Position numbers and translations under genes: made by a program
Shown here: piece after piece, positions 26,105 through 61,022 of the stretch
Position numbering within the stretch: the stretch's first letter is position 1
How the letters are laid out: each line of letters opens with the position of its first letter
The notes under the pieces: model-generated
What the model saw: the letters and a program-made list of their open reading frames with translations, nothing else
What the model was told of the DNA's origin: nothing
The model's database searches: none
Source: Candidatus Saccharimonadia bacterium
Lineage (GTDB): Bacteria; Patescibacteriota; Saccharimonadia; UBA4664
Direction of reading: 5' to 3'
DNA: 64,000 nt
NCBI GenBank assembly: GCA_041743505.1
Contig: JBGTMQ010000021.1
Coordinates: 64,521 to 128,520 of the forward strand

Positions 26105-26383
26105 TTAGTTTGCTGTATCTTTCCAATTCCACCACAATAATTTGTCTGGCTCTGGATTGGTCGTACTAGCATAATATACTGCACATCGAAACACGTATAA
26201 AACGCAGCGGTCGACATACGTTCCGCAGGCAGCCATGAGCCGCTTATACATTATTTCTGGATCTTGTCCTTGTAAGTCTAATGGCTTTTCATAGCCTAAC
26301 GATTGGAGATCTTGGGCAATGGATGGGCCGACACCGGGTATGTCGGTTAAGGATTGAGCTTGTGCAATTGGGATGGATTTCAT
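26105..26383 (-). CDS. Helix-hairpin-helix (Cdd1-like) small protein
   Basis: SLTDIPGVGPSIAQDLQSLG HhH motif. The start at MKSIPIAQ gives a 4-nt overlap with the upstream gene. Confidence 0.45.
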   Translation of the reverse strand: MKSIPIAQAQSLTDIPGVGPSIAQDLQSLGYEKPLDLQGQDPEIMYKRLMAACGTYVDRCVLYVFRCAVYYASTTNPEPDKLLWWNWKDTAN

Positions 26384-27624
26384 GCTAGGTAATCGGTCCA
26401 CATAAACAAATAAGTGGCGTAGGCGCTCATGGCAATTGAGACTAGCCAAAGCCCGGTTTCGAGCTTGGTAGCGCGGTTAGGTAAATATTCGACCAGCAGG
26501 ACGAGGAACCAGGGCAAGAGGATCATGGCGTAGCGGTAAGAGTATTGCCAGCCGCCGGGATTGCCATGGACCCAGAGAGAGAATGTGAGTATGACAATGG
26601 CGGTCCAGGCTAGTGAGATGCGTAATATATCGCCCTTTGGCTTGCGGATCAGGAGCAGCAGGAACGGGCTGGCCAGCAGGATGGAGCCGCCCCAGCCGGT
26701 TGGTACCAGGTGTGGCCACTGCTGGATCTGTTTCCAGCCGGCCCAGAGCATTTGATGGGCGTTTTCGCCGATGGCTGAGAGCGAGAAAATGCCCTGCTGG
26801 TACCATGGCTCATCGAGGACGCCGGGGATGCGGGCGTAACCAAAGTCGAAGATGGAGCCGAAGCGGGCCTGGTTGTAAGCTAGTGTGGCCAAGCCGAGCA
26901 TAACGGGCGCCAGGCAGAATTGGATGATGGTGGAGCGGCTTTCTTCGAGGAAGTGGGCCCAGGAGCGGGTGCCATGCCAGTACGGGCGGAGGAGAAAGGC
27001 TAGAATAATGGGCGAAATAAGGATGACCTCGGTGCGGTTGCCGAAGGCTACGGCTAGAGCCAGGCCGGCCCAAAATGGCCGCCGGTGCACCACACTCCAA
27101 TACAGGGCCGCCAGCTGGCCGAGTACGGCAAAGCCTAAGGCCAGCTGCCAGGCGCCGGCAAATAGCAGATTGGTCATAAACCAGGTCCCGGCGACCAGCC
27201 AAAGGGCCAGCATTGCGCGCTTCTCGGGTGTCAGCTGCGGGCGGAGGCGAGTGTATAGGTAGGCGAATCCGGCGCATCCGGCCGCCAGCAAGCCGACGAG
27301 TAGATTGACAGGATAATCACGGATGATACCCAGCGAGACGAGGGTGCTGAGCGGCCAGACAGATAGAACAGAGCCGAGCGGGAAAACCGAGTAATACAGC
27401 CCGCCGGACATGGGTACCAGTTCGTTGAGCCATGTGGGCGCCTCGGTGACACCGAGATGGCCTTGCAGAAGGGCCGTGGCGATAACAAACGTGTAGTTGA
27501 GGGCTTGGTAGTAGGTTTTTTGGGCCAGGAGCCAGAAGACGGCGCCGATGAACAAAGTTAAGCCAAGGCCGAGCCAGAGGTTGATACCGCTTGACCCTAG
27601 CGGTTCTGATTTATGCATAGCCAT
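26380..27624 (-). CDS. Polytopic membrane glycosyltransferase (GT-C fold, ArnT/PMT-like), tentative
   Basis: About 12 TM helices with loop motifs typical of GT-C mannosyl/arabinosyltransferases. Confidence 0.5.
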   Translation of the reverse strand: MAMHKSEPLGSSGINLWLGLGLTLFIGAVFWLLAQKTYYQALNYTFVIATALLQGHLGVTEAPTWLNELVPMSGGLYYSVFPLGSVLSVWPLSTLVSLGIIRDYPVNLLVGLLAAGCAGFAYLYTRLRPQLTPEKRAMLALWLVAGTWFMTNLLFAGAWQLALGFAVLGQLAALYWSVVHRRPFWAGLALAVAFGNRTEVILISPIILAFLLRPYWHGTRSWAHFLEESRSTIIQFCLAPVMLGLATLAYNQARFGSIFDFGYARIPGVLDEPWYQQGIFSLSAIGENAHQMLWAGWKQIQQWPHLVPTGWGGSILLASPFLLLLIRKPKGDILRISLAWTAIVILTFSLWVHGNPGGWQYSYRYAMILLPWFLVLLVEYLPNRATKLETGLWLVSIAMSAYATYLFMWTDYLA

Positions 27625-40001: not shown

Positions 40002-40804
40002 GACGTACCTCCGTCGATACGCTCCATTGCAATAACGCCACAGTCATCGCCCATATATTCGCCAAACTCCTTGCGGAGCAGGTTGAGCAGATACTGCAAG
40101 CCCATTGGATTGTTTGGCGCATGGCTGAACAACCGGTCGGGCAACCCAATGTTGGGCAGGCCGAGCAATTCTTCGATACCATCGGTCGCCAATGCGATTC
40201 GCTGGATTTCGGCTGACGGGTAGTTTGCAGTGTCAAATCCGCCACCAATGGCAGGATAAGCCGGCCGGTCATTCTGGTCGACGATGTGAATATCATCATT
40301 AATGATGATGACACCGTCGCCGGCCTGGAATGTGACCAGATCCTCGCCGTCATCAACGAACCCGATTATCGTGGCTGCCAAGTAGTCGGTCGTAAACCGT
40401 TGCGTGGCATTCAGCTCGTTACGGAATTCGTTTGCGCCCTTGAGCTTTACAATCAGCGGCCAATGGATATTGGACGGCATGACTGTGCTGGCGAGGTTAC
40501 GCAGAAAGTTGATGACGGCGTGGTACAAAGGCAGCGGAATTTCCGCCATCTTGGCACCGCCGACGATCAACTCCTGAATGTGTGCCAGGCAAAACACGAC
40601 CAATAGGTTCGAGCCGACTTCACTATGAGTGAATGCCGGAATACCACTACAACCGTCTGATGCCAACCCTATCCGGTAGTTCTTGCCCCGTTTGGGGATA
40701 CTAAACTCCTGATACAGGACGGCATCCTGGTTGTTGGTGCCGTGCTGGATGTGTTTGACGCCCTGTATGGTGCCCGACCTCAAGCGGTATGCTGGGCTAG
40801 TCAT
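39998..40804 (-). CDS. PP2C-family Ser/Thr protein phosphatase
   Basis: GTNNQDAV (motif 1 Asp), ASDGCSG (metal-binding DG), C-terminal GDDCGVIAM (DDxT-like). Confidence 0.75.
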   Translation of the reverse strand: MTSPAYRLRSGTIQGVKHIQHGTNNQDAVLYQEFSIPKRGKNYRIGLASDGCSGIPAFTHSEVGSNLLVVFCLAHIQELIVGGAKMAEIPLPLYHAVINFLRNLASTVMPSNIHWPLIVKLKGANEFRNELNATQRFTTDYLAATIIGFVDDGEDLVTFQAGDGVIIINDDIHIVDQNDRPAYPAIGGGFDTANYPSAEIQRIALATDGIEELLGLPNIGLPDRLFSHAPNNPMGLQYLLNLLRKEFGEYMGDDCGVIAMERIDGGTS

Positions 40805-46375: not shown

Positions 46376-46795
46376 CTAAACGCCGAGGAAGCCGATAATG
46401 AGGCCCATAACCATGATGGTGGCGAACTCATTGCTAATGTTGAGTAATGTTAGTTTGGGGGGCCGGCCCTCAAAGGCGTCGTGAGTAATGAAGCGGGCAG
46501 CCGTAAAGCCGAGCCACATCCAGAAGGCAGTGGTGAGGGAGTCTTGCAGGAAGCTGTTTTGAAAGAATTGGTTGGAGAGAAATGCGACATGAGCGAGTAC
46601 GTAGGCTGTTATGAGGCTGACAACCATAGTAGCGGCGATGGGCTTAAAGACGCTGCCGCCGTCTTTTGACATATCGATTTTAGCGAGCTTGATCCAGGTA
46701 TTACCAAATACTGAGCGGGCATACCAGATGCTGCCGACGACTAACGAGCTGAGCATAGCCAGGATGACTGCTAGAATATTGATTTGTACTTCCAC
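46376..46795 (-). CDS. DUF1761-like small membrane protein
   Basis: 4 TM, 139 aa. Confidence 0.45.
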   Translation of the reverse strand: MEVQINILAVILAMLSSLVVGSIWYARSVFGNTWIKLAKIDMSKDGGSVFKPIAATMVVSLITAYVLAHVAFLSNQFFQNSFLQDSLTTAFWMWLGFTAARFITHDAFEGRPPKLTLLNISNEFATIMVMGLIIGFLGV

Positions 46796-46859: not shown

Positions 46860-48107
46860 TTAATCGTGGCGGAGGGCCTCGATGGGATTGACACGAACGG
46901 CCCGCCAAGCCGGGTAGGCGACCACGAGCAGGGCGACCACGATAACCAATCCGAGAGTGCTAAAGACAAGCCACCAGGGCAGGCTAAAGATATTGACGGG
47001 ATCGGTGACGCCACGTGAGCTGGCCAGCCGGGTGAGACCGAGGTTAATGGCGACGCCCAGCAGCCAAGATGAGGCAATGCCGCAGATACCGCCCAAGACG
47101 GCCAGGCCAACGGCTTCGGCAACAAACAAGCGGCGGATGTCTTTGCGCCGGGCGCCGAGGGAGATCATAAGAGCGATTTCACGGGTGCGTTCGAGCAGAG
47201 AGATGGTGAGGGTGTTGAACATGCCTAAAACGGCGATGAGCATGCCAATGCCACCGAAGCCGGCCAGGATAAAGTTGAAGAAGACGAAAACCTGCTTGAT
47301 CTGGTTAAGGGTATCGATGGGCGATGTGGTGTTAAAGCCGAGCACCTCAATGCGCTTGCGAACGGCCGCGACATTGGACTCAGAGTCGACCATGACTTTG
47401 GCTTGCGCGTAATTGGTGACGCCGGCAGACGCGAAAAAGGTGTCGGGCATAAAGACCTCGGACCCGCTGCCGGTATCAACCACACCTTTAATAACGCCGT
47501 TGGCTAGGAGATGCCGTTTGGCGCCGTCGCCGGCGGGGGCCAAGATATCTAGGCGCAGGACTTTGCCGGTGGCTTTGGCGGGATCGCTAATGCCAATGAG
47601 CCTAGTGAGCGACGAGTTTACGAGTATCTCGCCGGGGCCGAGCTTGAGGCTGCCTTTGGTGGTGAGACGCAGCGAGCTGAGATTTAAGTAGGTTGAATCG
47701 GCGCCATAGACTACAGCATCGGTACTCGATTGGCCGAGCGTGACCTTGCTAGCCAGTGTGTAGCTTTTGGCAACGTCGGTGACATGAGGGATCTGGCGAA
47801 TTTTGGAGATATTCGGGGCATCGAGCGGGACAATATTGGAGCTGGGAGGCGTGACATCGACGGCGGTGACTGATTTGGATCCGATAACCTGCTTGAAAAC
47901 AAGATTTTGCAGGCCAAGACTAAATGAGAGTAAAAATGTGATGGAGCCAATGCCAATGAGAACGCCGCCGGCCGTGAGGAAGGTGCGGAGTTTGCGGGCA
48001 ATAAGGTTACGGTAGGCCATGTACAGGATTATTTTGGGACGAAGATGGCGCGTGCCGGCGTTGGCCTCGAATTCGACGTAGGCGGTCGACTTGACTGATT
48101 TAGCCAT
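46860..48107 (-). CDS. FtsX/MacB-type ABC permease
   Basis: N-terminal TM, ~250-aa extracytoplasmic domain, C-terminal 3-TM FtsX bundle. 8-nt overlap with the ATPase gene. Confidence 0.8.
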   Translation of the reverse strand: MAKSVKSTAYVEFEANAGTRHLRPKIILYMAYRNLIARKLRTFLTAGGVLIGIGSITFLLSFSLGLQNLVFKQVIGSKSVTAVDVTPPSSNIVPLDAPNISKIRQIPHVTDVAKSYTLASKVTLGQSSTDAVVYGADSTYLNLSSLRLTTKGSLKLGPGEILVNSSLTRLIGISDPAKATGKVLRLDILAPAGDGAKRHLLANGVIKGVVDTGSGSEVFMPDTFFASAGVTNYAQAKVMVDSESNVAAVRKRIEVLGFNTTSPIDTLNQIKQVFVFFNFILAGFGGIGMLIAVLGMFNTLTISLLERTREIALMISLGARRKDIRRLFVAEAVGLAVLGGICGIASSWLLGVAINLGLTRLASSRGVTDPVNIFSLPWWLVFSTLGLVIVVALLVVAYPAWRAVRVNPIEALRHD

Positions 48108-48831
48108 GTTTCACCCCTATTTTCCGGCGTCTGGCGGCATTTTGCTCGGTAGTGTCGGTGAGGAGGCCGTCTTTAATTTCTAGTTGTTGGGTACTAAAGC
48201 TCAGATAATCGAGGTTGTGGGTCACGAGAATGACGGTTTTACCCTGCTCTTTGACGCTCCGTTCGAGCAGGCCCATGATGAGCTCGCCGTTTCGGGAATC
48301 TAGATTGCCGGTGGGCTCATCGGCCACGATAACACGGGGGCTGGCAATAAGTGCGCGGGCCATGGAGACACGCTGTTGCTGCCCGCCCGAAAGTTGCGTT
48401 GGGTTGTGGGCCGAAATATTGCCGAGGCCGACCTGCTCGAGCCGCAACTGGGCGAGACTAGTGGCCTGCTGCCGGTCGTAGCCCGCTAGATAGAGCGGGA
48501 AGGAAACATTTTCGATGACATTGAGGCTACTAACCCAGTAGTTGGTTTGGTTGACCATGCCGAGGGTGAGCTGGCGGAACCGCGCCCGATCGTCCGGAGT
48601 GAGCTGGTAAAGGTCCTGTCCGAGCATGTCCACGGTTCCGCTAGTGGGAGGTTCGAGGCCGACAATGGTGTTGAGCAAGGTCGATTTACCTGAGCCGGAC
48701 GGTCCGTAGATGATGGCAAAAGCGCCCTCTTTGATTTCAAAGTTTACGTCGATGAGCGCCTTGACCGTCTCGGTGGCCAGGTCGAATTGTTTATGTAGAT
48801 TGGTGATTTTGAGAAGGGTTTTACTGCTCAT
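48100..48831 (-). CDS. ABC transporter ATP-binding protein (FtsE/MacB-like)
   Basis: Walker A GPSGSGKST, signature LSGGQQQRV, Walker B VIVADEPTGNLD. 4-nt overlap with the giant gene stop. Confidence 0.85.
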   Translation of the reverse strand: MSSKTLLKITNLHKQFDLATETVKALIDVNFEIKEGAFAIIYGPSGSGKSTLLNTIVGLEPPTSGTVDMLGQDLYQLTPDDRARFRQLTLGMVNQTNYWVSSLNVIENVSFPLYLAGYDRQQATSLAQLRLEQVGLGNISAHNPTQLSGGQQQRVSMARALIASPRVIVADEPTGNLDSRNGELIMGLLERSVKEQGKTVILVTHNLDYLSFSTQQLEIKDGLLTDTTEQNAARRRKIGVKHG

Positions 48832-51800
48832 TTGAGGAATCCAAATATGTTTGACAGGGCATTGAAGATGATGCTGAGAACGCTTTCGGTGCCCCGCCCG
48901 ATGATGGTGGACTGATCGGTGGAGCTACCTTCATTGCCGGCGCGGTCGCGGGAGATGGCCTTGAGATGGAAAACGGTGGAAGTGGGTAAATCGGAAATAA
49001 TAACCACGTGGTCGTAGGTGTAATTTTGGTCTTCGGCGGTTTTGGTGCTGTAGCTGTCGCCGGACGAGCCTTGATTGAAGGCGACCTGGCTGGCGGCTGG
49101 CTCGTCGGTCTTCCAGCTAACCACCATCTGGCCGCGGGCGTCTGAGCCAGTGCCCTTGATGCTGGATTCTATGGTGACTCGCGAGACTTTGGGTGGGCGG
49201 GTGTCGAGGGCGGTGCGGAAGACTTGTTGATCGGAAACGGCCAGATTGCCGCTGCCGTCACGCGAGGAGGCGGTGAGAATGTATTCGCTATTATCGACGA
49301 GGTCGCTAATGGTGATCTGGTGGTCGGTGGTGAGCTTGGATTCGCTGACCTCCAACTGTTTTTGGCCGCGGGGCCCGTACTGGAGGCCGGAGGTGGCGGG
49401 CACATTGGTGGTCCAGGAGACAAGCTGAGTGTTCGTGGGGGCTCCGGCGACCGGCTGGAAGCGCAGGTCCGAGATACGGGGCCGGGCCGGGGTGGTAAAG
49501 GTGAAGATACTGGAATTGTACTCATTGCCATCGGCATCGAAGGTGTTGATTTTGTAGAAGTATTTAGTCCCGTCATCGAGGTTAGTGAGTTGGGCGGTAT
49601 AGGAAGATTCGGCGGTGGAGGTGTTGAGAATCTGGACGCCGCCAAAACTGTCGGTCTTGCCAAAGTAAATCTTGGTGCTGGTGGCGTCTTTGGAGGTGAA
49701 ATGAATGGAAGTACTGGTAAGCCCGACGGACGGATTGGTGACTTCTTTGATGAGGGGGGCCGGCGCCGTGGTGAAGCTAAACTCATCGGAGCTGCCCAGG
49801 TTGCCGTCTTCGTCGATCCATTTGGCTTTGGCAAAGTAGAGTGTACCGGGAGACAAGTTGGTGAGATTGATGGTGTGAGCTGTCACCTGGTTGGAATTGG
49901 CGACTTCATCGCTGGAGTAATTGCCGCTGGAGGTACCAAGCGCGATGCGCGAGTCACTGGCGCGGTTGGTGACCCAGCTAATGGTGGCGCGGCGGGTGGT
50001 GACATTTTGCACGGCCACCTGGTTGAGCAGGCCGGCCGGGCTGGTGAAGCGGCCGGTAGGCAGCTTGGAGACTGAGTTAGAGGCTACGCCACAGTTATTG
50101 GCTGAGTCACAGGCTTTGATTTTGTAGTAGTACGTGATTTGACTGAGGCCGCTGTCGACCAGGCTGGTGGCGCTGGTGGTGGCGACGACGCTAAAGTTGA
50201 CGTTGTCGGTGGAGCGGAAGACGCGGTAGGTGGCCACGCCGGCGCCCGGATTGGTGGGTGGTTCCCAGGTGAGAGCCAGGCGCCAGTTGGCGGTGGATTT
50301 GATGGAGGCGTCGACGACGTCCGGGTTGAGCGGCATACCCGGGGCGGAGGTATTGGCCGTGAAGATGACACTAGCTGCAGTGGCGTAGTTAATGTTGCCG
50401 GCCTCATCTTTGGCTACAACATAGAACGTGTTATCGCCGGGCTGGGTGGCGTAGGGTCCGGCAGTAATGTTGGTAACGCCGGCAGCGGTGAAGGTGCAGT
50501 TGGAGACGGTGGGTGTGGCATTGACGGTGTAGCAGTAGGTGAGGTTGGCGGCTTGCCCGGCAAATGAGGCCGGAGCCACCCAGTTGAAGCTAAATGAGTT
50601 GGTGGTGTTGGTAGTGGGGATGGCGGCGAGGTTTTGAGGTGAGCTCGGTGAACTGGTATTAATTTTAAGCGCAGTGGTGACATAGACGGGTGAGACATTA
50701 CCGGCCAGATCCCAGGTGCGGAAGTAAATGGTGTTGTTGCCCTCAATGAGGTTGGCAAAGTCCGGGGTATTTTGGGTGGTATAGGACCCATCGTTGGCGA
50801 GCAGGTCGGTGGCGTCCTGAGTGCCGAAGTGGTTGTCCCCATACCAGGGGCTGGAGGCGCCAATGCGATACTGGAGGCCGGCCACACCAGAGTTGGCGTC
50901 GCTGGCGGCATCACTGCCACTGGTTTGCCAGGTGAGCGTGGCGGTTTTGGTGGCAATGAAGTTTGATGGGGCCGTGATGAAGGCCGGATTGGTGGGCGTG
51001 GTGTTATCGAAGCGGAACTGGAAGTTGGTGCTGGTGCTTGAGACAGCATTGCCGGCCCGGTCGATGGCGGTGACGTAGAGGTAGTAGGGATTGTTTGATG
51101 ACGTGAGCGCACTGGCAAGGTAGCCGCTGGTAGCCAGGTCCACGCTGTCGCCCGGCACAATGAACTGGCACGGCGTACCGGTGGTGGCCAATGGCGAGTT
51201 ACCAAGGATACCTTTGGTGCTGGTCGGGTCGGAGCCGGCTGTTTGACCGAGGTACAGGCAGTAACCGTAGATGCCAGCGCCAGCGTCGGAGCCGGCGGTC
51301 CAGCTGAAGTACGGCGAGCCGCCGTTGGTCCAGTCATTTGAGGCCACGGTGGGCCCACCGGCCGACTTGTACATGACGGCCGCGGTGGCGTTGGTTTCGG
51401 GTGGGGTTATGTCAGTGATGCCGGAAACGGTGACTGAGTCCAAGGTAACCCGTTGTGTGCCGTCACCTTGGGCGATAGCCTGCCATTTGATACCACCACC
51501 CATGACTACGGGGAACGTGGCGATGTTGCTGTTGATGACTGCGGCGGAGTTGGTTTGGGTGGTGTCGGCCGATACAACCCAGGCACTGCCGCTCCAGTAT
51601 TTCCACGTAGTGCCATTATCGGTCGAGAGGCGGTAGTTGATACTGCCTCCACCCAGTGTGGAACTGTCGCTAAAGGCGCTCCAGCTGGCAACGCCAGTGC
51701 CGAGGACGGCGCTGAGCGGGCTGACGGCGAGCGGAGCATTGGAGTAGGGTTTGGTGGTAAAGCTACTGCGGGCAGAGTCGCTGATGCGAACTTCGTCGAG

Positions 51801-54800
51801 TGAGCCGGCAAAGTAGCCCTGAGCCACGCCGGCCTGGGCGGCGCCAAAGGTGGTGCCGAGCAGAAGCGGCTGGCTGGTATTGGGCAGTGACAGCGAGGCG
51901 GAAGTGGAAGCATTGAGCGTGCCATCAATGTATAACTTCATGGTACCGCCGTCATAAGTGGCCGCCAGGTGATGCCAGCTGGTATTCTGGCCGACGGTGG
52001 CCGACTGCAAGAAGCCGTTGTTGCCATAGGACCAGATGGCGGCGTCGACGTTGGCTGAGTCGCCCAGGCCGGCGTAGAGTTTGCCGCGATAGGTGGTCAT
52101 GGCGCGGACTGTTTCGGTAGCATTGACGGCCCAGCTGCCATTCATGGCGTCGCCGCCGATTTGGGTCCAGGCGCCATTGTCGTATTGCCAGACCTCGCCA
52201 TCGCTGGCGGTGTTGGCCAGTCCCGCGTAGAGTCCGCCGTTGTAAACCGACAAGCCCTTGGCTTGCTCGTATTGGCCGTCGATCCAGCTACCGCCTATGG
52301 CGTCGCCGCCGATTTGCGACCAGGCCGTGCCATTCCACTCCCAGATTTCGGCGTCTGCGGTGGTGTTACCGAGGCCGGCGTAGAGTTTGCCATTGTAGGC
52401 TTGAAGAGATTCTACCTGCTCGTAGACGGTATTCCAGCTGCTGTTTAGGCCATCGCCGCCGATCTTGGTCCAGGTGGCTCCACCCCATCGCCAGACTTCG
52501 GCGTCGGTGGCGCTGGCGCCCAGCCCAACGTGGAGCTGTCCGCCGAAGACGGTCATGGAGCTGACGCGCTCAAAGCCGGCCGCCCAGCCGCTGTTTAGGC
52601 TGTCGCCGCCGATCTTGGTCCAGGCCGTGCCGTTCCAACGCCAGACTTCGGCGTCGCCCGCAGTATTACCGAGGCCGGCGTAGAGATTGCCACCAAAGGT
52701 AGCGAGCGAATAGACTTCCTCGTATCCGGCGGCCCAGCCGCTGTTTAGGCTATCGCCGCCAATTTGGGTCCAGGCAGTGCCGTTGTAGCGCCAGACTTCG
52801 GCGTCCCCGGCGGTAGTGCCCAGGCCGACATACAAATTCCCACCATAGCTGGTCATGCTGAGAACGTTTTCGAAGGTATTAACCGCCCAGCTGGAGTTAA
52901 TCCCCTGCCCGCCCACAAGCGCCCATGATGTGCCGTCAAAGCGCCAGACTTGGGCGTTGCCGGCCACGGTATTACCGAGACCGGCGTACAGATAGTCGCC
53001 CGAGACGGTCATACTTTCAACATCTTGAAGATTGAAAAAGCCCCAGCTTTTATTGACGTAGCCGCCGCCCATCCGCGTCCAGGACGTACCGTTGTAGGTC
53101 CAGATTTCGGCGTTGTTGCCGGCCGCGGTTAGGCCGGCGTAGAGGGTGCTGCCCGTATAAAGCAGAGACTGCACAATAGTATGCGTGTTGGTGAAGCCGC
53201 TATTTAACCCATCGCCGCCAATTTGGGTCCAAGCCGTGCCGTTGTAGCGCCAGACTTCATTGTCGCCGGCAGTATTGCCTAGGCCGGCGTAAACGTTGGT
53301 GCCATCGTCGGTTAAGGCGTAAACCCCTTCATAGTTGGTGTTCCAGCTACTATTTAAGCCGTCGCCGCCAATTTGGGTCCAAGCCGTGCCGTTGTAACGC
53401 CAGACTTCGGCGTCGGTGGTGCTGAGGCCGATGCCGGCGTAGAGATCACTGCCGAGCCAGCGCAGACTCTGGACGGTCTCGTAGGTCACATCTGCCCAGC
53501 TGGAGTTGACGGCATCACCGCCGATTTTGGTCCAGGCCGGTGTGGTGCCACAGTTGCCGCAGCGCCAGACCTCGGCGTCCCCGGCGGTAAGCCCTAGGCC
53601 GGCGTAAATGTTGGTGCCGTCTGTCGCCAGAGACGGGACGATTTCGTAGTTGGTGGTCCAGCCGCTAGCCAGGCTGTCGCCGCCAACTTTGGTCCAGGCA
53701 CTGCCATTCCAGCGCCAGACTTCGGCGTCGTTGGCCGAGCTGCCGATGCCGGCGTACAAGTTAGAGCCCATCACGACCATACTGGTGACTTCCTCATAGG
53801 TGTTGACGACCCAGCTGCTGTTAATGCCGTCGCCGCCGATCTTGGTCCAGCTGGAACAGCCAGTGGAGGTGTCACAGCTCCAGACTTCGGCATCCCCGGC
53901 ACTGGAACCCAGCCCGGCGTAAAGCGTGTTGCCATTGGCGGCTAGTGACAGGACATTTTCGAACGTTTGGTCGGACCAGCTGGAGTTCTTGCCGTCGCCG
54001 CCGATTTGGGTCCAGGTGGACCCATCCCATTTCCAGACCTCAGCATCAGCCACGGCATTGCCTAACGCGGCATAGACGTTGCCGCCGATAGCAACCTGGG
54101 CGTTGACAGATAACTTACCGTTTAGGTCCCAGCTACTCTTGACGTCGTTGCCGGCTTGTTGAGTCCAGTTGGTGGCTGCGGAATTAGCCAGCTCATACGT
54201 GACCTTGCCGGTTTCCTGGTCGTAATACAGCTTGTAGGAGCCCTTGTCGATGACACCCTGCTGATGGTCGTGGCTGGTGTCCGAGAACGTGCCCGCGAAT
54301 TTGGTCCAGGCCTCCAGGGTATTGTCCTGGTCCAATGAGAGTGAGGCAGAATCTGTGGCCGATACTTGATCGCTGGTTCCGTTAAGCGTGAGGCCGTTGT
54401 TTAAGTTACCGAGGCCGAACGTGCCGCCGGTGACTGCACCCGTGTTGCTATTGGTTGAGGAATCGGCGGCGCTACCACCGCCGGCTTCATCCAGGTGGTA
54501 GAGGGCTTCGGTGGCGGCATCAGGGGTGTAGTTTTGAGCTTTATGACGGACGCTGGTACCACTAACCTCGAGGGCGCTGTCGATGGAGAAATTGCTGGGT
54601 GTAGTGAAGTCCCAAGTATGGGATGAGTCAGCAAAGATAGCGTGGTGCAGGCCGCTCACAAAGAAAATACCAATGATGTAGGCTGTGAGGGCGGCGTAAT
54701 GCACCCGATGATGGTGACGATGGTTATGCCAGCGATCATACCAGTCAAACTGACGACGGAGGTGCTGATGCGGACGGGCGGCAAGATGGTGGTGGGCTGT

Positions 54801-54998
54801 GCGAAGGTGCGTTGCGGCCTGACCGGCGACGGACATGACGGCGGCCAAGCCACCTACTAGACGCGGCCGCACTGTTGACATGGCACGGCTAGCCCATCGC
54901 TGGACATAGGCTACACCGCGCCTTACCAGCACTGACCTAGCGGTTGCGCTACGGCGTCGTGCGGCTTTGTTTGCTCCTCCTAGTTTCGACCGGGCCAT
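48828..54998 (-). CDS. Giant (2056 aa) signal-anchored surface protein: LamG/ConA-like, ~15-17 propeller-like tandem repeats, second LamG, multiple Fn3/Ig-like domains
   Basis: Basic cytoplasmic N-terminus then a TM. LamG_3-like blocks (W.HLAATYDG..MKLYIDG...SLDEVRISD). ~50-aa repeats (LYAGLGNTAGDAEVWRYNGTAWTQIGGDGLNSSW...). C-terminal Fn3-like modules. Confidence 0.8.
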   Translation of the reverse strand: MARSKLGGANKAARRRSATARSVLVRRGVAYVQRWASRAMSTVRPRLVGGLAAVMSVAGQAATHLRTAHHHLAARPHQHLRRQFDWYDRWHNHRHHHRVHYAALTAYIIGIFFVSGLHHAIFADSSHTWDFTTPSNFSIDSALEVSGTSVRHKAQNYTPDAATEALYHLDEAGGGSAADSSTNSNTGAVTGGTFGLGNLNNGLTLNGTSDQVSATDSASLSLDQDNTLEAWTKFAGTFSDTSHDHQQGVIDKGSYKLYYDQETGKVTYELANSAATNWTQQAGNDVKSSWDLNGKLSVNAQVAIGGNVYAALGNAVADAEVWKWDGSTWTQIGGDGKNSSWSDQTFENVLSLAANGNTLYAGLGSSAGDAEVWSCDTSTGCSSWTKIGGDGINSSWVVNTYEEVTSMVVMGSNLYAGIGSSANDAEVWRWNGSAWTKVGGDSLASGWTTNYEIVPSLATDGTNIYAGLGLTAGDAEVWRCGNCGTTPAWTKIGGDAVNSSWADVTYETVQSLRWLGSDLYAGIGLSTTDAEVWRYNGTAWTQIGGDGLNSSWNTNYEGVYALTDDGTNVYAGLGNTAGDNEVWRYNGTAWTQIGGDGLNSGFTNTHTIVQSLLYTGSTLYAGLTAAGNNAEIWTYNGTSWTRMGGGYVNKSWGFFNLQDVESMTVSGDYLYAGLGNTVAGNAQVWRFDGTSWALVGGQGINSSWAVNTFENVLSMTSYGGNLYVGLGTTAGDAEVWRYNGTAWTQIGGDSLNSGWAAGYEEVYSLATFGGNLYAGLGNTAGDAEVWRWNGTAWTKIGGDSLNSGWAAGFERVSSMTVFGGQLHVGLGASATDAEVWRWGGATWTKIGGDGLNSSWNTVYEQVESLQAYNGKLYAGLGNTTADAEIWEWNGTAWSQIGGDAIGGSWIDGQYEQAKGLSVYNGGLYAGLANTASDGEVWQYDNGAWTQIGGDAMNGSWAVNATETVRAMTTYRGKLYAGLGDSANVDAAIWSYGNNGFLQSATVGQNTSWHHLAATYDGGTMKLYIDGTLNASTSASLSLPNTSQPLLLGTTFGAAQAGVAQGYFAGSLDEVRISDSARSSFTTKPYSNAPLAVSPLSAVLGTGVASWSAFSDSSTLGGGSINYRLSTDNGTTWKYWSGSAWVVSADTTQTNSAAVINSNIATFPVVMGGGIKWQAIAQGDGTQRVTLDSVTVSGITDITPPETNATAAVMYKSAGGPTVASNDWTNGGSPYFSWTAGSDAGAGIYGYCLYLGQTAGSDPTSTKGILGNSPLATTGTPCQFIVPGDSVDLATSGYLASALTSSNNPYYLYVTAIDRAGNAVSSTSTNFQFRFDNTTPTNPAFITAPSNFIATKTATLTWQTSGSDAASDANSGVAGLQYRIGASSPWYGDNHFGTQDATDLLANDGSYTTQNTPDFANLIEGNNTIYFRTWDLAGNVSPVYVTTALKINTSSPSSPQNLAAIPTTNTTNSFSFNWVAPASFAGQAANLTYCYTVNATPTVSNCTFTAAGVTNITAGPYATQPGDNTFYVVAKDEAGNINYATAASVIFTANTSAPGMPLNPDVVDASIKSTANWRLALTWEPPTNPGAGVATYRVFRSTDNVNFSVVATTSATSLVDSGLSQITYYYKIKACDSANNCGVASNSVSKLPTGRFTSPAGLLNQVAVQNVTTRRATISWVTNRASDSRIALGTSSGNYSSDEVANSNQVTAHTINLTNLSPGTLYFAKAKWIDEDGNLGSSDEFSFTTAPAPLIKEVTNPSVGLTSTSIHFTSKDATSTKIYFGKTDSFGGVQILNTSTAESSYTAQLTNLDDGTKYFYKINTFDADGNEYNSSIFTFTTPARPRISDLRFQPVAGAPTNTQLVSWTTNVPATSGLQYGPRGQKQLEVSESKLTTDHQITISDLVDNSEYILTASSRDGSGNLAVSDQQVFRTALDTRPPKVSRVTIESSIKGTGSDARGQMVVSWKTDEPAASQVAFNQGSSGDSYSTKTAEDQNYTYDHVVIISDLPTSTVFHLKAISRDRAGNEGSSTDQSTIIGRGTESVLSIIFNALSNIFGFLK
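51950..54150 (-). repeat. Nucleotide-level tandem repeats (~150-156 bp units) encoding the propeller-like blades
   Basis: Recurring near-identical strings, e.g. gtcgccgccgatttgggtccaagccgtgccgttgtagcgccagacttc at ~53211 and ~53361. Confidence 0.6.
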
Positions 54999-55221
54999 TG
55001 TTGTCTCACAATTTCTTATTGTATTTTAGCATAAGAATCATGAAATTGTACCGTTGCATTGGGCAAAACTCCAGTCTGTTTATTTGGTCCGAGGCTCACA
55101 TTAATCGCTATTGCCTAGACGAGAGTTCCTGATCTGCGTTTGTACTTTTTACGTTTATGTGTTATAATATAATCATCCACTACGGAGCACCCCTAACCCT
55201 TTCCTTGAGGAGCGTGACCCC

Positions 55222-58607: not shown

Positions 58608-60119
58608 TTATAGACCTGAAAAGTAATCGGTTTTGATGCGGCTGTGTTTGATGCCGAGTTGGCGGAGCATGGTGCGGTAGGATTCGACCATGACGTTGGG
58701 GCCGGAGAGGAAGAACATGACTTCCTGATAATGAGGTACTTGGTTTTTGATAATGTCAGCCGTGAGAAAACCTGTCTCCCCTGTCCAGTCTTTGGGTACT
58801 TCGCGGGCCGTGAGGAGATAGTGGGTGGTTAGGCCGATGGTTTTGGCCTCGTCCAACAAGGGCCGGTAGACGAAGTCGCTGGGATTATTGGCAGAGTAAA
58901 ACATGGTTATGTCGCGGTGTTGATTGGTGTCGAGGAGGTGCTTGATCATGCTGCGGAAGGGGGTGATGCCGATGCCACCGGCGATGAACACGAGCTTTTG
59001 GTTGGGTTCGGCGGGCAAAATGAAGTTGCCGGCGAGTTGTCCGGCCATGACGGTATGGCCGGGTTTGAGGTCGTGCAGGGCGGTTTTGAAGCTGCTGGAC
59101 GGGGTGTAGAACCGGGTGGTCAGGTGTAATTCTGGTTCGGTCGGCGATGAGGAGATGGAAAAGGTGCGGCGGTTACCGCGGATATCGGTGCGGCCGTGCG
59201 GGACCAACACATCCATGTATTGGCCGGGCTGAAACTGAGCCGGGCGGTCCTTGGTGAAGCGGAATTCGGTGATGTCGGGTGAGAGCTGGACTTGTTCTTT
59301 GAGCTTTAGGCGCAGACGGTACTTGGGGCTCATGAAGTAGGCAAAGACGTTACCAATGAGGAGCGCAACTTCGGGAGTGCTATAGATGGGGCCGATGTGG
59401 ACTTGGGAGCCAAATATGACACCAACGAGCGCGCCATAGATGAGGATGTCGCGGTTGCGGGGCGGCATGGTGGCGGGTTCGGTTAGCATAATGGTGCCAA
59501 GGAAGATGAGCGGCCAGGATAGGTAGGCCGTGGCTAAAACGTCGGTGACGGAGCGGTCTGCGGCCACCAGGAGCATCGTGGCCAGCGTGGCCAGTACAAA
59601 GGCGGTGACGAGCTGAAAACGGCGGACTTTGCGGGCTACCAATAGACCCAGCGCGATGACGAACGGCAAGAGGATGGGCGTGGCAACCCACCAGGTGGCG
59701 GCGTAGAGCCCGGTGAGGCCGACCGCGGCGGCGCCGAAAGCGGCCGGATTGAAGATGTGCTTGCGGCCTGTAGCCAGGAGGTACTTGGAGGCCATGGCAA
59801 TGAGGCCGGCGAGCGCGATCATGGCCAGGTCACGGACATTGGCGGGCGGCGCCAGGAGGAAGAATAAAATGATTGCAGTAATGGAAGCCGACTCAGCGCC
59901 GGTGGGAGCGTCGAATAGGGTGCTAAATAACCAGTTGGCGGCGTAGCAGACCAAAAACAGCGTAACAAGCGAAACCAAAAGCGCAGGGCCGGATAGGCTG
60001 AGCGCGCCCATGAAGGCAAATATGATGGCGACGGCAGCTAGCGCCATGAGGCCGTACAGCATCAAGCGGTACATAGTGATGCCGTTCAGGAACCGATCAA
60101 TTTGCCGAATCACTACCAT
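58608..60119 (-). CDS. Membrane oxidoreductase: N-terminal NqrB/RnfD-like domain fused to C-terminal FNR-like FAD/NAD(P)-binding domain
   Basis: HIFNPAA and IMLTEPATMP (RnfD/NqrB FMATDPVT-like) in the TM domain. RTFSIS (RxYS-like FAD motif) and GGIGITP NAD(P) motif in the C-terminal domain. Confidence 0.55.
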   Translation of the reverse strand: MVVIRQIDRFLNGITMYRLMLYGLMALAAVAIIFAFMGALSLSGPALLVSLVTLFLVCYAANWLFSTLFDAPTGAESASITAIILFFLLAPPANVRDLAMIALAGLIAMASKYLLATGRKHIFNPAAFGAAAVGLTGLYAATWWVATPILLPFVIALGLLVARKVRRFQLVTAFVLATLATMLLVAADRSVTDVLATAYLSWPLIFLGTIMLTEPATMPPRNRDILIYGALVGVIFGSQVHIGPIYSTPEVALLIGNVFAYFMSPKYRLRLKLKEQVQLSPDITEFRFTKDRPAQFQPGQYMDVLVPHGRTDIRGNRRTFSISSSPTEPELHLTTRFYTPSSSFKTALHDLKPGHTVMAGQLAGNFILPAEPNQKLVFIAGGIGITPFRSMIKHLLDTNQHRDITMFYSANNPSDFVYRPLLDEAKTIGLTTHYLLTAREVPKDWTGETGFLTADIIKNQVPHYQEVMFFLSGPNVMVESYRTMLRQLGIKHSRIKTDYFSGL

Positions 60120-60134
60120 ATAGTCACCTCTTGG

Positions 60135-61022
60135 TTATGTGGCTGAAAAAAACGTGGCGGGGAATCCCGGCGACTGCTGCAGTGAGCCGCCGCTATGTAC
60201 GAGTGCAGACTCAAACTTATAATACCCGTCTAAGACGGACTGATCCACAAAAAACAACGCTGTAGCGAGGGCATCAGCTATGAGGGCGGTGGGGGCGGTG
60301 ACCCAAACCGCCTGGAGGTGGCGGGGAGAGGTGAGGGTGTGGGGATTTAGGATATGGTGGTAGTCGCCCCAGGCGCGGCGGTTGCCGGCCGAGGCACAGA
60401 GGCTGGTGTTGGACAGTTCGGCTACGCCGATGACTTGGGTTGGGTCGGCCGGGTGCTCGAGGCCGACCCGAAGTGGCGGGCCGTCCAGGCGACGGTAGCG
60501 CATGTCACCGCCGGCGTCGACGCAGTAGGACGTGAGGCCGTGATCTTCGAGCAGTTCGCTGACGAGGTCGACCAGGTAACCTTTGCCGGCGGCGCCGAGG
60601 TCGAGCAAGGCGGGTTGGTGGAGGGTGAGATGCGGGAAGTCGTAGGTTAGGGTTTCGTCCCAGGCCGGCGGGGACGTGAGCGGTTTGGGCGTGAGCGAGT
60701 AGGCTGCGTCGTAGCCGGCGTCGGACAGGGTCTGGCCGATGAGCGGCGTGACGGCCCCGTTGGTGATGCGGTACAAATCTTGATAGATGTCGAATAGGGG
60801 CTGAGCGTCAGCCGGTAATTCGTAGCGGCCGGCCTGGTGGGACAGGCGCGTGATGAGCGAATCGGGGCGGAACCGCGAATAGGCCAGGTCGAATTGTTCG
60901 ACGCGGGCGGCTATAGCGTGCTTGATTTTGGCGGACATGGGGGCTCGGGATACGGGCTCATAGACCTCCACGGACCAGGCGGTGCCGATGGCTTCGAACC
61001 GTAACTCCAAAGCCGCCCCCAA
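60135..61022 (-). CDS. apbE: FAD:protein FMN transferase (ApbE/Ftp family)
   Basis: GAAGKGYLVD and HILNPHTLTSP blocks typical of ApbE. Confidence 0.75.
   Translation of the reverse strand: MGAALELRFEAIGTAWSVEVYEPVSRAPMSAKIKHAIAARVEQFDLAYSRFRPDSLITRLSHQAGRYELPADAQPLFDIYQDLYRITNGAVTPLIGQTLSDAGYDAAYSLTPKPLTSPPAWDETLTYDFPHLTLHQPALLDLGAAGKGYLVDLVSELLEDHGLTSYCVDAGGDMRYRRLDGPPLRVGLEHPADPTQVIGVAELSNTSLCASAGNRRAWGDYHHILNPHTLTSPRHLQAVWVTAPTALIADALATALFFVDQSVLDGYYKFESALVHSGGSLQQSPGFPATFFSAT

What the first reader, a model, noticed from the sequence alone, without database searches (positions are those of the whole stretch)
46860..54998. Operon of a 2056-aa signal-anchored surface protein (LamG-propeller-LamG-Fn3 array) with an FtsEX/MacB-like ABC pair
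The giant gene stop overlaps the ATPase start by 4 nt, and the ATPase overlaps the permease by 8 nt. The coupling implies the ABC pair acts with the giant protein, for example in its export, surface remodelling or signalling, analogous to FtsEX-PcsB or MacB-adhesin arrangements. The protein has a long basic cytoplasmic N-tail, one TM, two ConA/LamG-like lectin modules bracketing ~15-17 ~50-aa blades, then at least 6 Fn3/Ig-like domains. That architecture fits an adhesin or carbohydrate-binding sensor.
Basis: partly seen in the sequence, partly recalled or inferred. Interest (0 to 1): 0.6.

Follow-up and report, generated by a model that had tools for sequence, protein, structure and literature searches.

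The report
Surface-protein gene with its own ABC motor
A Saccharibacteria (TM7) genome encodes a 2056-residue surface protein directly coupled to its own MacB-type ABC ATPase and permease. This three-gene cassette recurs across hundreds of related genomes with interchangeable binding "heads" on one constant stalk and tail, so it looks like an undescribed surface apparatus of these host-dependent bacteria.

Summary
The gene triplet is real and lies exactly where stated. On the minus strand are a 2056-aa protein (48828..54998), an ABC ATPase (48100..48831, 4-nt overlap) and a MacB_PCD/FtsX permease (46860..48107, 8-nt overlap).

The domain reading needs correction:
- There is one LamG domain, split by an insertion of 14 four-stranded blades (two tandem 7-bladed propellers).
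- About nine or ten beta-sandwich domains follow.
- The protein ends in a conserved C-terminal amphipathic helix.
- The N-terminal hydrophobic segment is followed by a conserved signal-peptidase-like site, so "signal-anchored" is unproven.

Linkage is essentially absolute. The ATPase follows the giant gene in 77 of 77 species-representative genome loci, and the permease follows in 70 of 70. No other flanking gene is conserved.

The new result concerns the last ~850 residues (stalk plus tail). They also occur behind other heads: DUF2341, NHL, RCC1, FG-GAP, F5/8 type C and BclA/TNF-like. Each such gene is again followed by its own ABC pair, and one contig carries three cassettes.

Best reading (inferred): a type VII ABC mechanotransducer dedicated to the constant stalk and tail of a polymorphic-head surface protein. 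It is neither FtsEX nor MacAB proper. I found no description of it in the searched literature.

The parts
54999..55221 (-). Upstream intergenic region (223 nt) between the giant gene and a divergent SprT-like gene. It is the likely promoter region of the cassette.
   Evidence: Sequence read (AT-rich, with TACAAT and TAAAAT hexamers). The consensus scan found nothing above chance inside the cassette. The promoter itself is not shown.
48828..54998 (-). Giant protein gene, 2056 aa (stop codon 48828-48830).
   Evidence: More than 120 full-length homologues at 53-72% identity, all labelled Saccharibacteria or Patescibacteria where named. 217 species-representative genomes encode a relative.
54834..54998 (-). 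Residues 1-55: variable, strongly basic N-terminal (cytoplasmic) region.
   Evidence: charge; column conservation 0.20.
54699..54833 (-). Residues 56-100: conserved His/Trp-rich juxtamembrane motif HxHxAxRPHxHLxxxxxWYxxWHxWxxHxxVH.
   Evidence: Alignment. The same motif occurs in other-head members L087, L116, L143, L144, L157 and L158.
54633..54698 (-). Residues 101-122: hydrophobic segment (signal-peptide h-region or TM anchor). It is followed at about 120-124 by a signal-peptidase-I-like site (AIFA|DSS).
   Evidence: Hydropathy, helix in the model, (-3,-1) site in 103/103 homologues. Cleavage is not shown.
54174..54617 (-). Residues 128-275: N-terminal half of a single LamG (concanavalin A-like) domain.
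   Evidence: Splice test against Pfam Laminin_G_3.
52014..54173 (-). Residues 276-995: 14 repeats of about 51 aa, forming 14 four-stranded blades (two tandem 7-bladed beta-propellers) inserted into the LamG domain. No Pfam family matches at E<=1.
   Evidence: pLDDT 82.9, pTM 0.82. GH74 xyloglucanases, Elp2 and Utp double propellers, E about 1e-18 to 1e-15.
51744..52013 (-). Residues 996-1085: C-terminal half of the same LamG domain.
   Evidence: Sequence match to the LamG of PDB 4qvs.
51411..51743 (-). Residues 1086-1196: beta-sandwich domain with one helix, linking head and stalk.
   Evidence: model residues 1-112, pLDDT about 85-90.
48900..51410 (-). Residues 1197-2033: constant stalk of about 8 Ig/Fn3-like domains (the last four are Pur_ac_phosph_N-type Fn3). 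It is shared with proteins that carry other heads.
   Evidence: Fn3/Ig arrays. Other-head proteins align to giant residues about 1170-2053. Sequences.
48831..48899 (-). Residues 2034-2056: conserved tail G-R-x-x-x-SVLSIIFNALSNIFGFLK. This is an amphipathic helix at the extreme C-terminus. The invariant I-I residues at 2032-2033 lie just upstream, at the end of the stalk part.
   Evidence: alignment; helix; polar residues at 1, 4, 8, 11/12, 15; muH 0.44, reached by 0.4% of shuffles; 55 cluster representatives in 1.84e9 proteins, and in nearly all the tail lies at the very end.
48100..48831 (-). ABC ATPase, 243 aa, of the LolD/FtsE/MacB-NBD type, with catalytic motifs intact. Its ATG overlaps the giant gene's TGA (ATGA).
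46860..48107 (-). Type VII ABC permease, 415 aa. TM1, then a MacB-type ectodomain, then TM2-TM4 (FtsX domain). 8-nt overlap with the ATPase gene.
47283..47909 (-). Permease residues 67-275: extracytoplasmic MacB_PCD (Porter plus Sabre) domain, the candidate contact surface for the stalk and tail.
   Evidence: profile 1-205 of 207; identity to the window's ectodomain is the same for permeases of other-head cassettes (0.38) as for giant-linked ones (0.37).

Best explanation
WHAT IT IS
This is one member of a conserved three-gene cassette of Saccharibacteria (Patescibacteria).
- The first gene encodes an exported surface protein built as an interchangeable N-terminal ligand-binding head, a constant stalk of about 8 Ig/Fn3 domains, and a constant C-terminal amphipathic helix.
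- In this window the head is a LamG lectin fold with two 7-bladed propellers inserted in it.
- The next two genes, translationally coupled to it, encode a dedicated type VII (MacB/LolCDE/FtsEX-class) ABC ATPase and permease.

PROPOSED MECHANISM (inferred)
- The protein is exported by Sec and its long signal peptide is probably cleaved.
- The C-terminal amphipathic helix then settles at the outer leaflet of the membrane, with the stalk pointing outward and the head at the far end.
- The ABC permease dimer engages this constant membrane-proximal end, in the way LolCDE, HrtBA and MacB take amphipathic clients from the outer leaflet.
- It uses cytoplasmic ATP hydrolysis (mechanotransmission) to control whether the stalk protein is held, pushed out through the wall, or released.
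- The head binds a glycan or surface ligand, most likely on the host bacterium.

SHOWN VERSUS INFERRED
- Shown: the gene structure, the domain architecture, the head/stalk/tail modularity, and the strict 1:1 linkage with the ABC pair.
- Inferred: the physical contact, which end of the protein is contacted, cleavage of the N-terminus, and the ligand.
For: COUPLING
- 4-nt and 8-nt overlaps in the window.
- The ATPase follows the giant gene in 77/77 genome loci that have at least 300 nt downstream, with a median spacing of 2 nt. The permease follows in 70/70, with a median spacing of -4 nt.
- No other neighbouring gene is conserved. The next gene cluster is present in only 20/80 loci, and the flanks differ between lineages.
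- Reverse linkage holds in 3 of 3 permease homologues tested.

THE LINK IS TO THE CONSTANT PART OF THE PROTEIN
- The tail profile finds proteins of 900-2050 aa, and in nearly all the tail is at the extreme C-terminus.
- Their heads are DUF2341, DUF2341+NHL, RCC1, FG-GAP, F5/8 type C, BclA_C/TNF-like, or absent.
- Each is followed by its own ATPase and MacB_PCD/FtsX permease.
- One 263-kb contig has three such cassettes. One locus has two tandem stalk genes sharing one pair.
- The permease ectodomain does not track head type.

OTHER POINTS
- ABC class: Pfam and NCBIfam place the pair in the MacB/LolCDE/FtsEX superfamily, with active-site motifs intact.
- Tail: a predicted helix with an i/i+3/i+4 polar stripe.
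- Export: members such as P0254 have plain signal peptides (...HSTANA|TSPS). The giants have a conserved (-3,-1) site.
- Family precedent, from the review PMC5985334: type VII ABC proteins act on extracytoplasmic clients by mechanotransmission. The N-terminal TM and cytoplasmic tail of MacA stimulates the MacB ATPase.
Against: - No direct evidence of contact exists.
- The conserved cytoplasmic His/Trp motif plus hydrophobic segment could be the real contact, as with MacA. In that case the N-terminus is an anchor and the head, not the tail, sits at the membrane.
- Co-duplication of whole cassettes could by itself explain why every copy has a pair.
- The permease ectodomain is less conserved than its TM region (0.53 against 0.70).
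- MacB-type pairs are commonly peptide or lipid exporters, and a second pair without such a partner lies in the same window.
- The cultivated model Southlakia epibionticum seems to lack the cassette, so no genetic data exist.
Confidence: 0.5

Rival explanations
1. Adaptor-like reading. The giant protein stays anchored by its N-terminal TM segment and takes the place of a MacA/YknX-type adaptor. Its conserved cytoplasmic motif and TM helix regulate the ATPase. The pair expels some other client (peptide, lipid or glycolipid) from the outer leaflet, and the head sits beside the permease ectodomain.
For: - The gene order giant-NBD-TMD is that of adaptor-NBD-TMD operons in Gram-positive bacteria. 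The N-terminal TM and cytoplasmic tail of MacA stimulates MacB (PMC5985334).
- The conserved His/Trp juxtamembrane motif occurs in giants and in many other-head members.
- The head starts only about 6 residues after the hydrophobic segment.
Against: - No lipoyl, beta-barrel or hairpin (HlyD-type) domain is found by Pfam or in the models.
- About half of the other-head members have plain signal peptides without the motif, yet keep the ABC pair.
- A conserved signal-peptidase-type site follows the segment.
- The head is the variable part, which is unexpected for a contact with a conserved permease.
Confidence: 0.2
2. Sensor reading. The stalk protein is an extracellular sensor and the ABC pair relays or senses its state, as in Bce-type flux sensing or FtsEX-type signalling. 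The output goes to a two-component system or to cell-wall enzymes.
For: - FtsEX and BceAB are signalling members of the same superfamily.
- A receiver-domain gene lies just after the permease in 15 of 108 loci, and a histidine kinase lies within 5 kb in 15 of 108.
Against: - The two-component genes are present in only about 14% of loci, are mostly on the opposite strand, and occur together in only 3 loci.
- None is in this window.
- The permease has 4 TM helices and a MacB_PCD, not the 10-TM BceB layout.
- Scores fall far below the FtsE and FtsX cut-offs.
Confidence: 0.1
3. Neighbours only. The ABC pair is an ordinary antimicrobial-peptide or lipid exporter that merely shares a promoter with a large envelope or S-layer-like structural protein. 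There is no physical or functional interaction.
For: - Sources name the homologues 'ABC-type antimicrobial peptide transport system permease'.
- The LamG half resembles that of an S-layer-domain protein, PDB 4qvs.
- MacB-type pairs without such partners exist in the same window and in Southlakia.
Against: - Linkage is 100% across hundreds of diverged genomes while every other neighbour changes.
- Each of three paralogous cassettes on one contig keeps its own pair.
- Overlapping stop and start codons are the rule.
- The linked permeases form their own group at 42-50% identity. The window's second pair is only 24-35% identical to them.
Confidence: 0.12

Closest known systems
FtsEX with its extracytoplasmic partners (PcsB, EnvC, CwlO, RipC)
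   Same: A type VII ABC ATPase and a 4-TM permease use cytoplasmic ATP hydrolysis to act on a protein bound outside the membrane. No substrate is transported.
   Different: - Scores fall far below the FtsE and FtsX family cut-offs.
- The ectodomain is a full MacB_PCD with a Sabre subdomain, not the FtsX type.
- The partner has no coiled coil and no peptidoglycan-hydrolase domain.
- The partner is encoded in the same operon, immediately upstream.
- There can be several cassettes per genome.
Gram-positive MacAB-like pumps (YknXYZ, Spr0693-0695, AS-48EFGH)
   Same: - A monoderm setting.
- Gene order: N-terminally anchored extracytoplasmic protein, then NBD, then MacB-type permease.
- Separate NBD and TMD genes.
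- A partner whose N-terminal cytoplasmic tail and TM can regulate the ATPase (PMC5985334).
   Different: - The upstream protein is not a membrane-fusion or adaptor protein. It has no HlyD-type domains.
- It is 5-6 times larger.
- It has swappable lectin or propeller heads and a conserved C-terminal amphipathic helix.
LolCDE and HrtBA (outer-leaflet extraction by type VII ABC proteins)
   Same: The proposed action is the same: capture of an amphipathic or lipidic moiety at the outer leaflet between the TM helices, then ATP-driven expulsion.
   Different: - The client would be a peptide helix at a protein's C-terminus, not acyl chains or haem.
- There is no LolA-like acceptor.
- Scores fall below the LolC, LolD and LolE cut-offs.
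- The contact itself is untested.
GH74 xyloglucanases and other tandem 7+7 beta-propellers (Elp2, Utp)
   Same: These are the best structural matches to the head (Foldseek E 3e-18 to 1e-15). GH74 enzymes bind a polysaccharide in the cleft between the two propellers. The blade motif xNGTxWTxIGG resembles an Asp-box (this last point is from my own knowledge and is a lead only).
   Different: - Identity is 14-16% and TM-scores only 0.3-0.4.
- No sequence-level match to any Pfam propeller repeat or to any PDB chain.
- The propellers are nested inside a LamG domain.
- Catalytic residues were not examined.
Large modular bacterial adhesins (LPXTG proteins of Gram-positives; RTX adhesins such as LapA and SiiE with type 1 secretion ABC proteins)
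   Same: A long stalk of Ig/Fn3-like domains carries a ligand-binding head. The gene sits next to an ABC transporter in the RTX case.
   Different: - There is no LPXTG, PEP-CTERM or GlyGly-CTERM type signal. The tail lacks the motif, TM segment and basic cluster layout.
- The ABC protein is type VII (FtsX/MacB fold), not the 6-TM type 1 secretion exporter.
- There are no RTX repeats.
- An N-terminal Sec-type signal is present.
PBP5-type C-terminal amphipathic-helix membrane anchors (own knowledge)
   Same: A short amphipathic helix at the very C-terminus of an exported protein, holding it on the outer face of the cytoplasmic membrane.
   Different: There is no sequence relationship. Here the helix is conserved together with a dedicated ABC pair.

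Membership tests
Type VII ABC superfamily (MacB/LolCDE/FtsEX fold) | Nucleotide-binding subunit with Walker A, ABC signature, Walker B and H-loop | tested here: met
   GPSGSGKS at 43, LSGG at 147, VIVADE at 167, THN at 204. ABC_tran 1.9e-31. The best NCBIfam matches are LolD, FtsE and the MacB NBD.
Type VII ABC superfamily (MacB/LolCDE/FtsEX fold) | Permease with four TM helices, a large extracytoplasmic domain between TM1 and TM2, and an FtsX domain over TM2-TM4 | tested here: met
   Hydrophobic segments at 48-66, 279-305, 327-358 and 379-397. MacB_PCD at 42-254 and FtsX at 284-408.
Type VII ABC superfamily (MacB/LolCDE/FtsEX fold) | Mechanotransmission: ATP-driven movement of the ectodomain without transmembrane transport | not testable with these tools
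   Needs biochemistry or structures. Assumed from family knowledge (PMC5985334).
FtsEX cell-division system | Sequences reach the FtsE and FtsX family (equivalog) scores | tested here: not met
   FtsE 180.4 bits against a cut-off of 264.85. The FtsX models score 23-28 bits against 225-255.
FtsEX cell-division system | Partner protein with a coiled coil that docks on FtsX and controls a peptidoglycan hydrolase | tested here: not met
   The giant protein is all-beta apart from its two terminal helices. No hydrolase, LytM, CHAP or NlpC domain was found.
MacAB-type pump (including Gram-positive YknXYZ and Spr0693-0695) | Cognate membrane-fusion or adaptor protein with lipoyl, beta-barrel and hairpin domains | tested here: not met
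   No HlyD-family hit in the giant protein. The models show LamG, propellers and Fn3 domains. No such gene lies in the flanks.
MacAB-type pump (including Gram-positive YknXYZ and Spr0693-0695) | Gene order: N-terminally anchored extracytoplasmic partner, then NBD, then permease with a MacB_PCD | tested here: met
   This is a resemblance of layout only.
LolCDE lipoprotein-release system | LolC, LolD and LolE family scores, and a diderm envelope with LolA and LolB | tested here: not met
   LolD 196.7 against 307.75. lolCE 52.5 against 362.45.
BceAB-type sensing and detoxification module | Ten-TM permease with a large ectodomain, plus an adjacent BceRS-like two-component system | tested here: not met
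   The permease is 415 aa, read as four TM helices. Receiver or kinase genes lie nearby in only about 14% of loci and in none in this window.
C-terminal sorting signals (LPXTG/sortase, PEP-CTERM, GlyGly-CTERM, PGF-CTERM) | Signature motif, then a full hydrophobic TM segment, then a basic cluster at the C-terminus, on many proteins per genome | tested here: not met
   The tail is a 16-18 residue amphipathic helix with N, K and K inside it and no basic end cluster. No NCBIfam model matches it. In 1.8 Mb of flanking DNA it occurs only on stalk proteins.
Glycoside hydrolase family 74 | Tandem 7-bladed propellers with two catalytic carboxylates in the cleft, and sequence membership of GH74 | tested here: inconclusive
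   The fold match is significant, but there is no sequence match.
Stalk-tail cassette family defined here (variable head, constant Ig/Fn3 stalk, IIGR-amphipathic tail, own type VII ABC pair) | Constant stalk and tail at the C-terminus, with the ATPase and permease immediately downstream | tested here: met
   Window. Family.

The most novel reading that the evidence does not exclude
Saccharibacteria, and perhaps other Patescibacteria, possess an undescribed ATP-powered surface apparatus. It is a family of host-recognition proteins with swappable lectin or propeller heads on one conserved stalk. Each protein is plugged by a conserved C-terminal amphipathic helix into its own MacB-type ABC motor. 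The motor deploys, holds or releases the protein and so governs attachment of the epibiont to its host.
Probability: 0.3. Interest if true: 0.8.

Novelty: new variant of a known kind. Interest (0 to 1): 0.62.

Why it matters
Saccharibacteria and other Patescibacteria live attached to host bacteria. Apart from type IV pili, almost nothing is known about how they recognise and hold their hosts.

This cassette has the shape expected of a recognition system:
- It is present in at least 217 species-level genomes.
- It is sometimes present in several copies per genome.
- Its heads are drawn from classic glycan- and ligand-binding folds.
- Its stalk, tail and ABC pair stay constant.

It would also add a new kind of client to the type VII ABC mechanotransducers: the end of a giant surface protein. 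This gives a concrete, testable link between cytoplasmic ATP and events at the epibiont surface. Finally, the constant stalk-tail module and its tail profile offer a simple handle for finding such proteins in metagenomes.

Tried and rejected
- Exact look-up of the giant protein's contig found nothing on record. The cluster look-up gave no names.
- The consensus promoter and terminator scan inside the cassette was at chance level and uninformative.
- Orthology with the essential envelope proteins of Southlakia epibionticum (SEML1_0890 and 0891, Wang et al. 2023) was rejected.
  - SEML1_0890 is only 195 aa, and the tables hold no PF13385 or PF16656 protein.
  - The MacB-type pair SEML1_0041/0042 of that strain has no giant gene upstream and is non-essential.
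- Literature searches for the cassette found no description. They combined Saccharibacteria or Patescibacteria with MacB/FtsX, LamG, surface protein or S-layer.
- The third homology search, with the RCC1-headed member P0258, was swamped by unrelated RCC1 proteins. It served only to unlock two context look-ups.
- A link to a two-component system was considered and found weak, at about 14% of loci.
- A search for the tail on other ORFs in 1.8 Mb of flanks found none.
- My first automatic 'giant-head versus other-head' label was unreliable. It was replaced by protein length plus Pfam scans of the heads.
- The apparent exception L088 (no ABC pair after the gene) turned out to be two tandem stalk genes sharing one pair.

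Full report
**1. The observation**

The junctions read ...TTCCTCAAATGAGCAGT... and ...GTGAAACATGGCTAAATCAGTC.... The giant gene's TGA therefore shares ATGA with the ATPase start (4 nt). The ATPase's TAA lies inside ATGGCTAA of the permease start (8 nt).

Pfam gives ABC_tran for the ATPase and MacB_PCD (42-254) plus FtsX (284-408) for the permease. The ATPase keeps Walker A, the signature motif, Walker B with its glutamate, and the H-loop. The permease has hydrophobic segments in four regions, read here as four TM helices, with a 210-residue ectodomain after the first.

A consensus scan finds no promoter or terminator excess inside the cassette. A 223-nt AT-rich spacer separates it from a divergent SprT-like gene.

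**2. Anatomy of the giant protein**

*N-terminus.*
- The first ~55 residues are variable and very basic.
- Residues 56-100 carry a conserved His/Trp-rich motif (HxHxAxRPHxHLxxxxxWYxxWHxWxxHxxVH).
- Residues ~101-122 are the only strongly hydrophobic stretch.
- Directly after it, all 103 homologues with a recognisable landmark have a site obeying the (-3,-1) rule, such as TFA|ADL or ALS|DLT. In the window the site is AIFA|DSS.
- This test is permissive, so cleavage is possible but not shown. 'Signal-anchored' should be read as 'signal peptide or signal anchor'.

*Head.*
- Splicing residues 121-270 to 996-1100 gives an end-to-end match to Laminin_G_3 (profile 1-146 of 151, 75.7 bits).
- The N half alone matches nothing, and the C half alone matches only profile positions 62-146.
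- It is therefore one LamG fold with the repeats inserted in a loop.
- There are 14 repeats of ~51 aa. The D-A-E-V-W motif was found at 13 positions. A 14th copy, DNEVW at about residue 579, was read from the translation. They match no Pfam family at E<=1.
- An AlphaFold2 model of residues 96-1100, built on 16 homologues, has pLDDT 82.9 and pTM 0.82. It shows a TM helix followed by 14 four-stranded blades.
- Its best solved matches are proteins with two tandem 7-bladed propellers: GH74 xyloglucanases, Elp2 and Utp proteins (E 3e-18 to 1e-15; 14-16% identity for GH74; TM-scores 0.3-0.4).

*Stalk and tail.*
- The model of residues 1085-2056 (pLDDT 78.5, pTM 0.37, as expected for beads on a string) shows about nine beta-sandwich domains and a terminal helix at 2038-2052.
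- Its matches are Fn3/Ig arrays.
- The last 23 residues (IIGR-x-x-x-SVLSIIFNALSNIFGFLK) are conserved.
- They have polar residues at positions 1, 4, 8, 11/12 and 15. This makes an amphipathic helix too short to span a membrane.

**3. Who has it**

More than 120 full-length homologues (53-72% identity, ~2000-2100 aa) exist. All named ones are labelled Saccharibacteria, Saccharimonadales or Patescibacteria.

A scan of one genome per species found relatives in 217 genomes, and 80 loci were fetched. The window is thus almost certainly from a member of Saccharimonadia.

The cultivated oral model Southlakia epibionticum seems to lack the family. Its annotation tables hold no PF13385 or PF16656 protein. 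Its MacB-type pair SEML1_0041/0042 has no giant neighbour and is non-essential. No Tn-seq data therefore bear on this cassette.

**4. Linkage**

- In every genome locus with at least 300 nt after the giant gene (77/77), the ATPase follows at once, with a median spacing of 2 nt.
- In every locus with enough sequence (70/70, combining), the permease follows the ATPase, with a median spacing of -4 nt.
- Clustering all flank ORFs shows no other conserved neighbour. The next real cluster is in 20/80 loci.
- None of the window's own neighbours (DUF1761, SPFH, SprT-like and others) recurs.
- In other lineages the cassette sits among housekeeping genes such as NrdR, L25, DinB, ThrRS and MurT.
- The reverse test also holds. 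Three permease homologues picked from the permease search all lie behind an ATPase and a ~2000-aa LamG/Fn3 protein.
- The linked permeases are 42-50% identical to the window's (72% for the nearest). They are only 24-35% identical to the window's second MacB-type permease at 23536..24831.

**5. The constant module and the variable heads**

A profile of the last 35 residues was searched against 1.84 billion representative proteins. It found 55 clusters, and in nearly all of them the match lies at the very C-terminus. Lengths run from ~900 to ~2050 aa.

The sequences share the last ~850 residues (stalk and tail, giant residues ~1170-2053) but have different N-terminal parts.

Pfam scans of the heads give:
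- DUF2341 (L087, L088)
- DUF2341 plus NHL propeller (L089)
- RCC1 propellers (L132, L138)
- FG-GAP propeller (L144)
- F5/8 type C (L143)
- BclA_C/TNF-like (L116)
- nothing recognisable (L157, L158)

P0254 (919 aa) is just a plain signal peptide plus stalk and tail.

A metagenome scan returned 79 loci, some of them the same contigs as the genome loci. In 77 of the 78 loci with usable downstream sequence, the ATPase follows directly. The one exception, L088, has two tandem stalk genes followed by a single pair.

Two low-GC RCC1-headed members show the same layout in independently called genes. One 263-kb contig carries three cassettes with NHL, F5/8 and FG-GAP heads, each with its own pair.

The permease ectodomain of other-head cassettes is as similar to the window's (0.38) as that of giant-linked ones (0.37). 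What travels with the ABC pair is therefore the stalk and tail, not the head.

**6. How it most likely works**

*Shown.*
- The cassette is conserved and translationally coupled.
- The ABC pair is an intact type VII system.
- The protein has a variable head and a constant stalk and tail.
- The coupling is 1:1.

*Inferred.*
- The variable, ligand-binding end is expected to face outward, and the constant end to meet constant cell machinery.
- Several members have ordinary cleavable signal peptides.
- I therefore think the N-terminus is removed. The amphipathic C-terminal helix would rest on the outer leaflet, the stalk would project outward, and the head would sit ~35-40 nm away.
- Type VII ABC proteins either take amphipathic clients from the outer leaflet and expel them (LolCDE, HrtBA, MacB, BceAB) or move a bound extracytoplasmic partner (FtsEX) (PMC5985334).
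- The simplest transfer of that logic is that the permease dimer grips the tail and last stalk domain. ATP hydrolysis would then decide whether the protein is held, pushed through the wall, or let go.
- I put 0.5 on 'the ABC pair acts on its cognate stalk protein', and about 0.3 on the tail being the gripped element.

*Rivals.*
- An adaptor-like reading, in which the N-terminal motif and TM stay in the membrane and regulate the ATPase as MacA does (0.2).
- A sensor or signalling reading (0.1). Two-component genes are nearby in only ~14% of loci.
- Mere co-expression with an ordinary exporter (0.12).

**7. Comparison with known systems**

- It works like FtsEX with its partner, or like a Gram-positive MacAB pump, in layout. 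It is a member of neither.
- Family scores are far below the FtsE, FtsX, LolC/D/E and MacB cut-offs.
- The ectodomain is a complete MacB_PCD.
- The partner has neither coiled coil and hydrolase domains nor adaptor domains.
- The tail is not a known sorting signal.
- The head's fold resembles GH74, but without sequence membership.

**8. Verdict**

- The domain map is corrected.
- The finding widens into a family of cassettes with swappable heads.
- I found no description of it in 8 million papers and preprints.
- I class it as a new variant of a known kind: a type VII ABC mechanotransducer with a new type of client. Interest is about 0.6. The mechanism is untested.

Noticed in passing
window 23536..25622 (-) and 26380..27624 (-): A second MacB-type ATPase and permease pair lies in the same window without any stalk-tail gene. 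Two small ORFs upstream (25747..26091 and 26105..26449) separate it from a 414-aa polytopic membrane protein with no Pfam match.
   Followed up: partly
L089, L143, L144 (contig ERZ650304.2-NODE-2, 263 kb): Three paralogous cassettes lie on one contig, with DUF2341+NHL, F5/8 type C and FG-GAP heads. Each has its own ATPase and permease.
   Followed up: yes
L088 3434..14286: Two stalk-tail genes in tandem (1403 aa and 1526 aa, 4-nt overlap) are followed by a single ABC pair. One pair can therefore serve two proteins.
   Followed up: yes
L034, L044, L048 (permease ORFs, e.g. L044 14888..16963): In three loci the cassette permease is 690-700 aa instead of about 410 aa and only ~31% identical. It may carry an enlarged ectodomain or be a duplicated permease.
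   Followed up: no
window 54699..54833 (-); also L087, L116, L143, L144, L157, L158 N-termini: A conserved cytoplasmic His/Trp-rich motif (HxHxAxRPHxxLxxxxxWYxxWHxWxxHxxVH) precedes the hydrophobic segment in giants and in about half of the other-head members. The rest have plain signal peptides. Its function is unknown; metal binding or ATPase contact are possibilities.
   Followed up: partly
e.g. L003 18100..18489 (-), L006 19836..20858 (-): A stand-alone receiver-domain gene lies just after the permease in 15 of 108 loci, mostly convergent. A histidine kinase lies within 5 kb in 15 of 108 loci. The two occur together in only 3.
   Followed up: yes
L166 13435..14568 (-): A sortase gene lies directly after the permease of an RCC1-headed cassette, on the opposite strand, although the tail has no LPXTG motif.
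   Followed up: no
window 46376..46795 (-): A DUF1761 membrane protein lies 64 nt downstream of the permease on the same strand. It is not conserved next to the cassette in other genomes.
   Followed up: partly
window 58608..61022 (-): A 503-aa fusion of an RnfD/NqrB-like membrane domain with FAD- and NAD-binding domains lies next to an ApbE flavin transferase. This is an unusual redox module for a reduced genome.
   Followed up: no
window 38019..40804 (-): A PP2C phosphatase gene overlaps by 4 nt a 660-aa protein that has no clear family match.
   Followed up: no
window 48001..52000: GC skew on the plus strand is unusually high (0.24-0.25) across the stalk-coding half of the giant gene. This probably reflects the Thr/Ser/Ala-rich composition read from the minus strand.
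   Followed up: no
giant residues 1925-1936 (window about 49191..49226): The segment QxFRTALDTRPPK, between the last two stalk domains, is the most conserved stretch of the whole family. The scanning tool used it as the search pattern in both collections.
   Followed up: no
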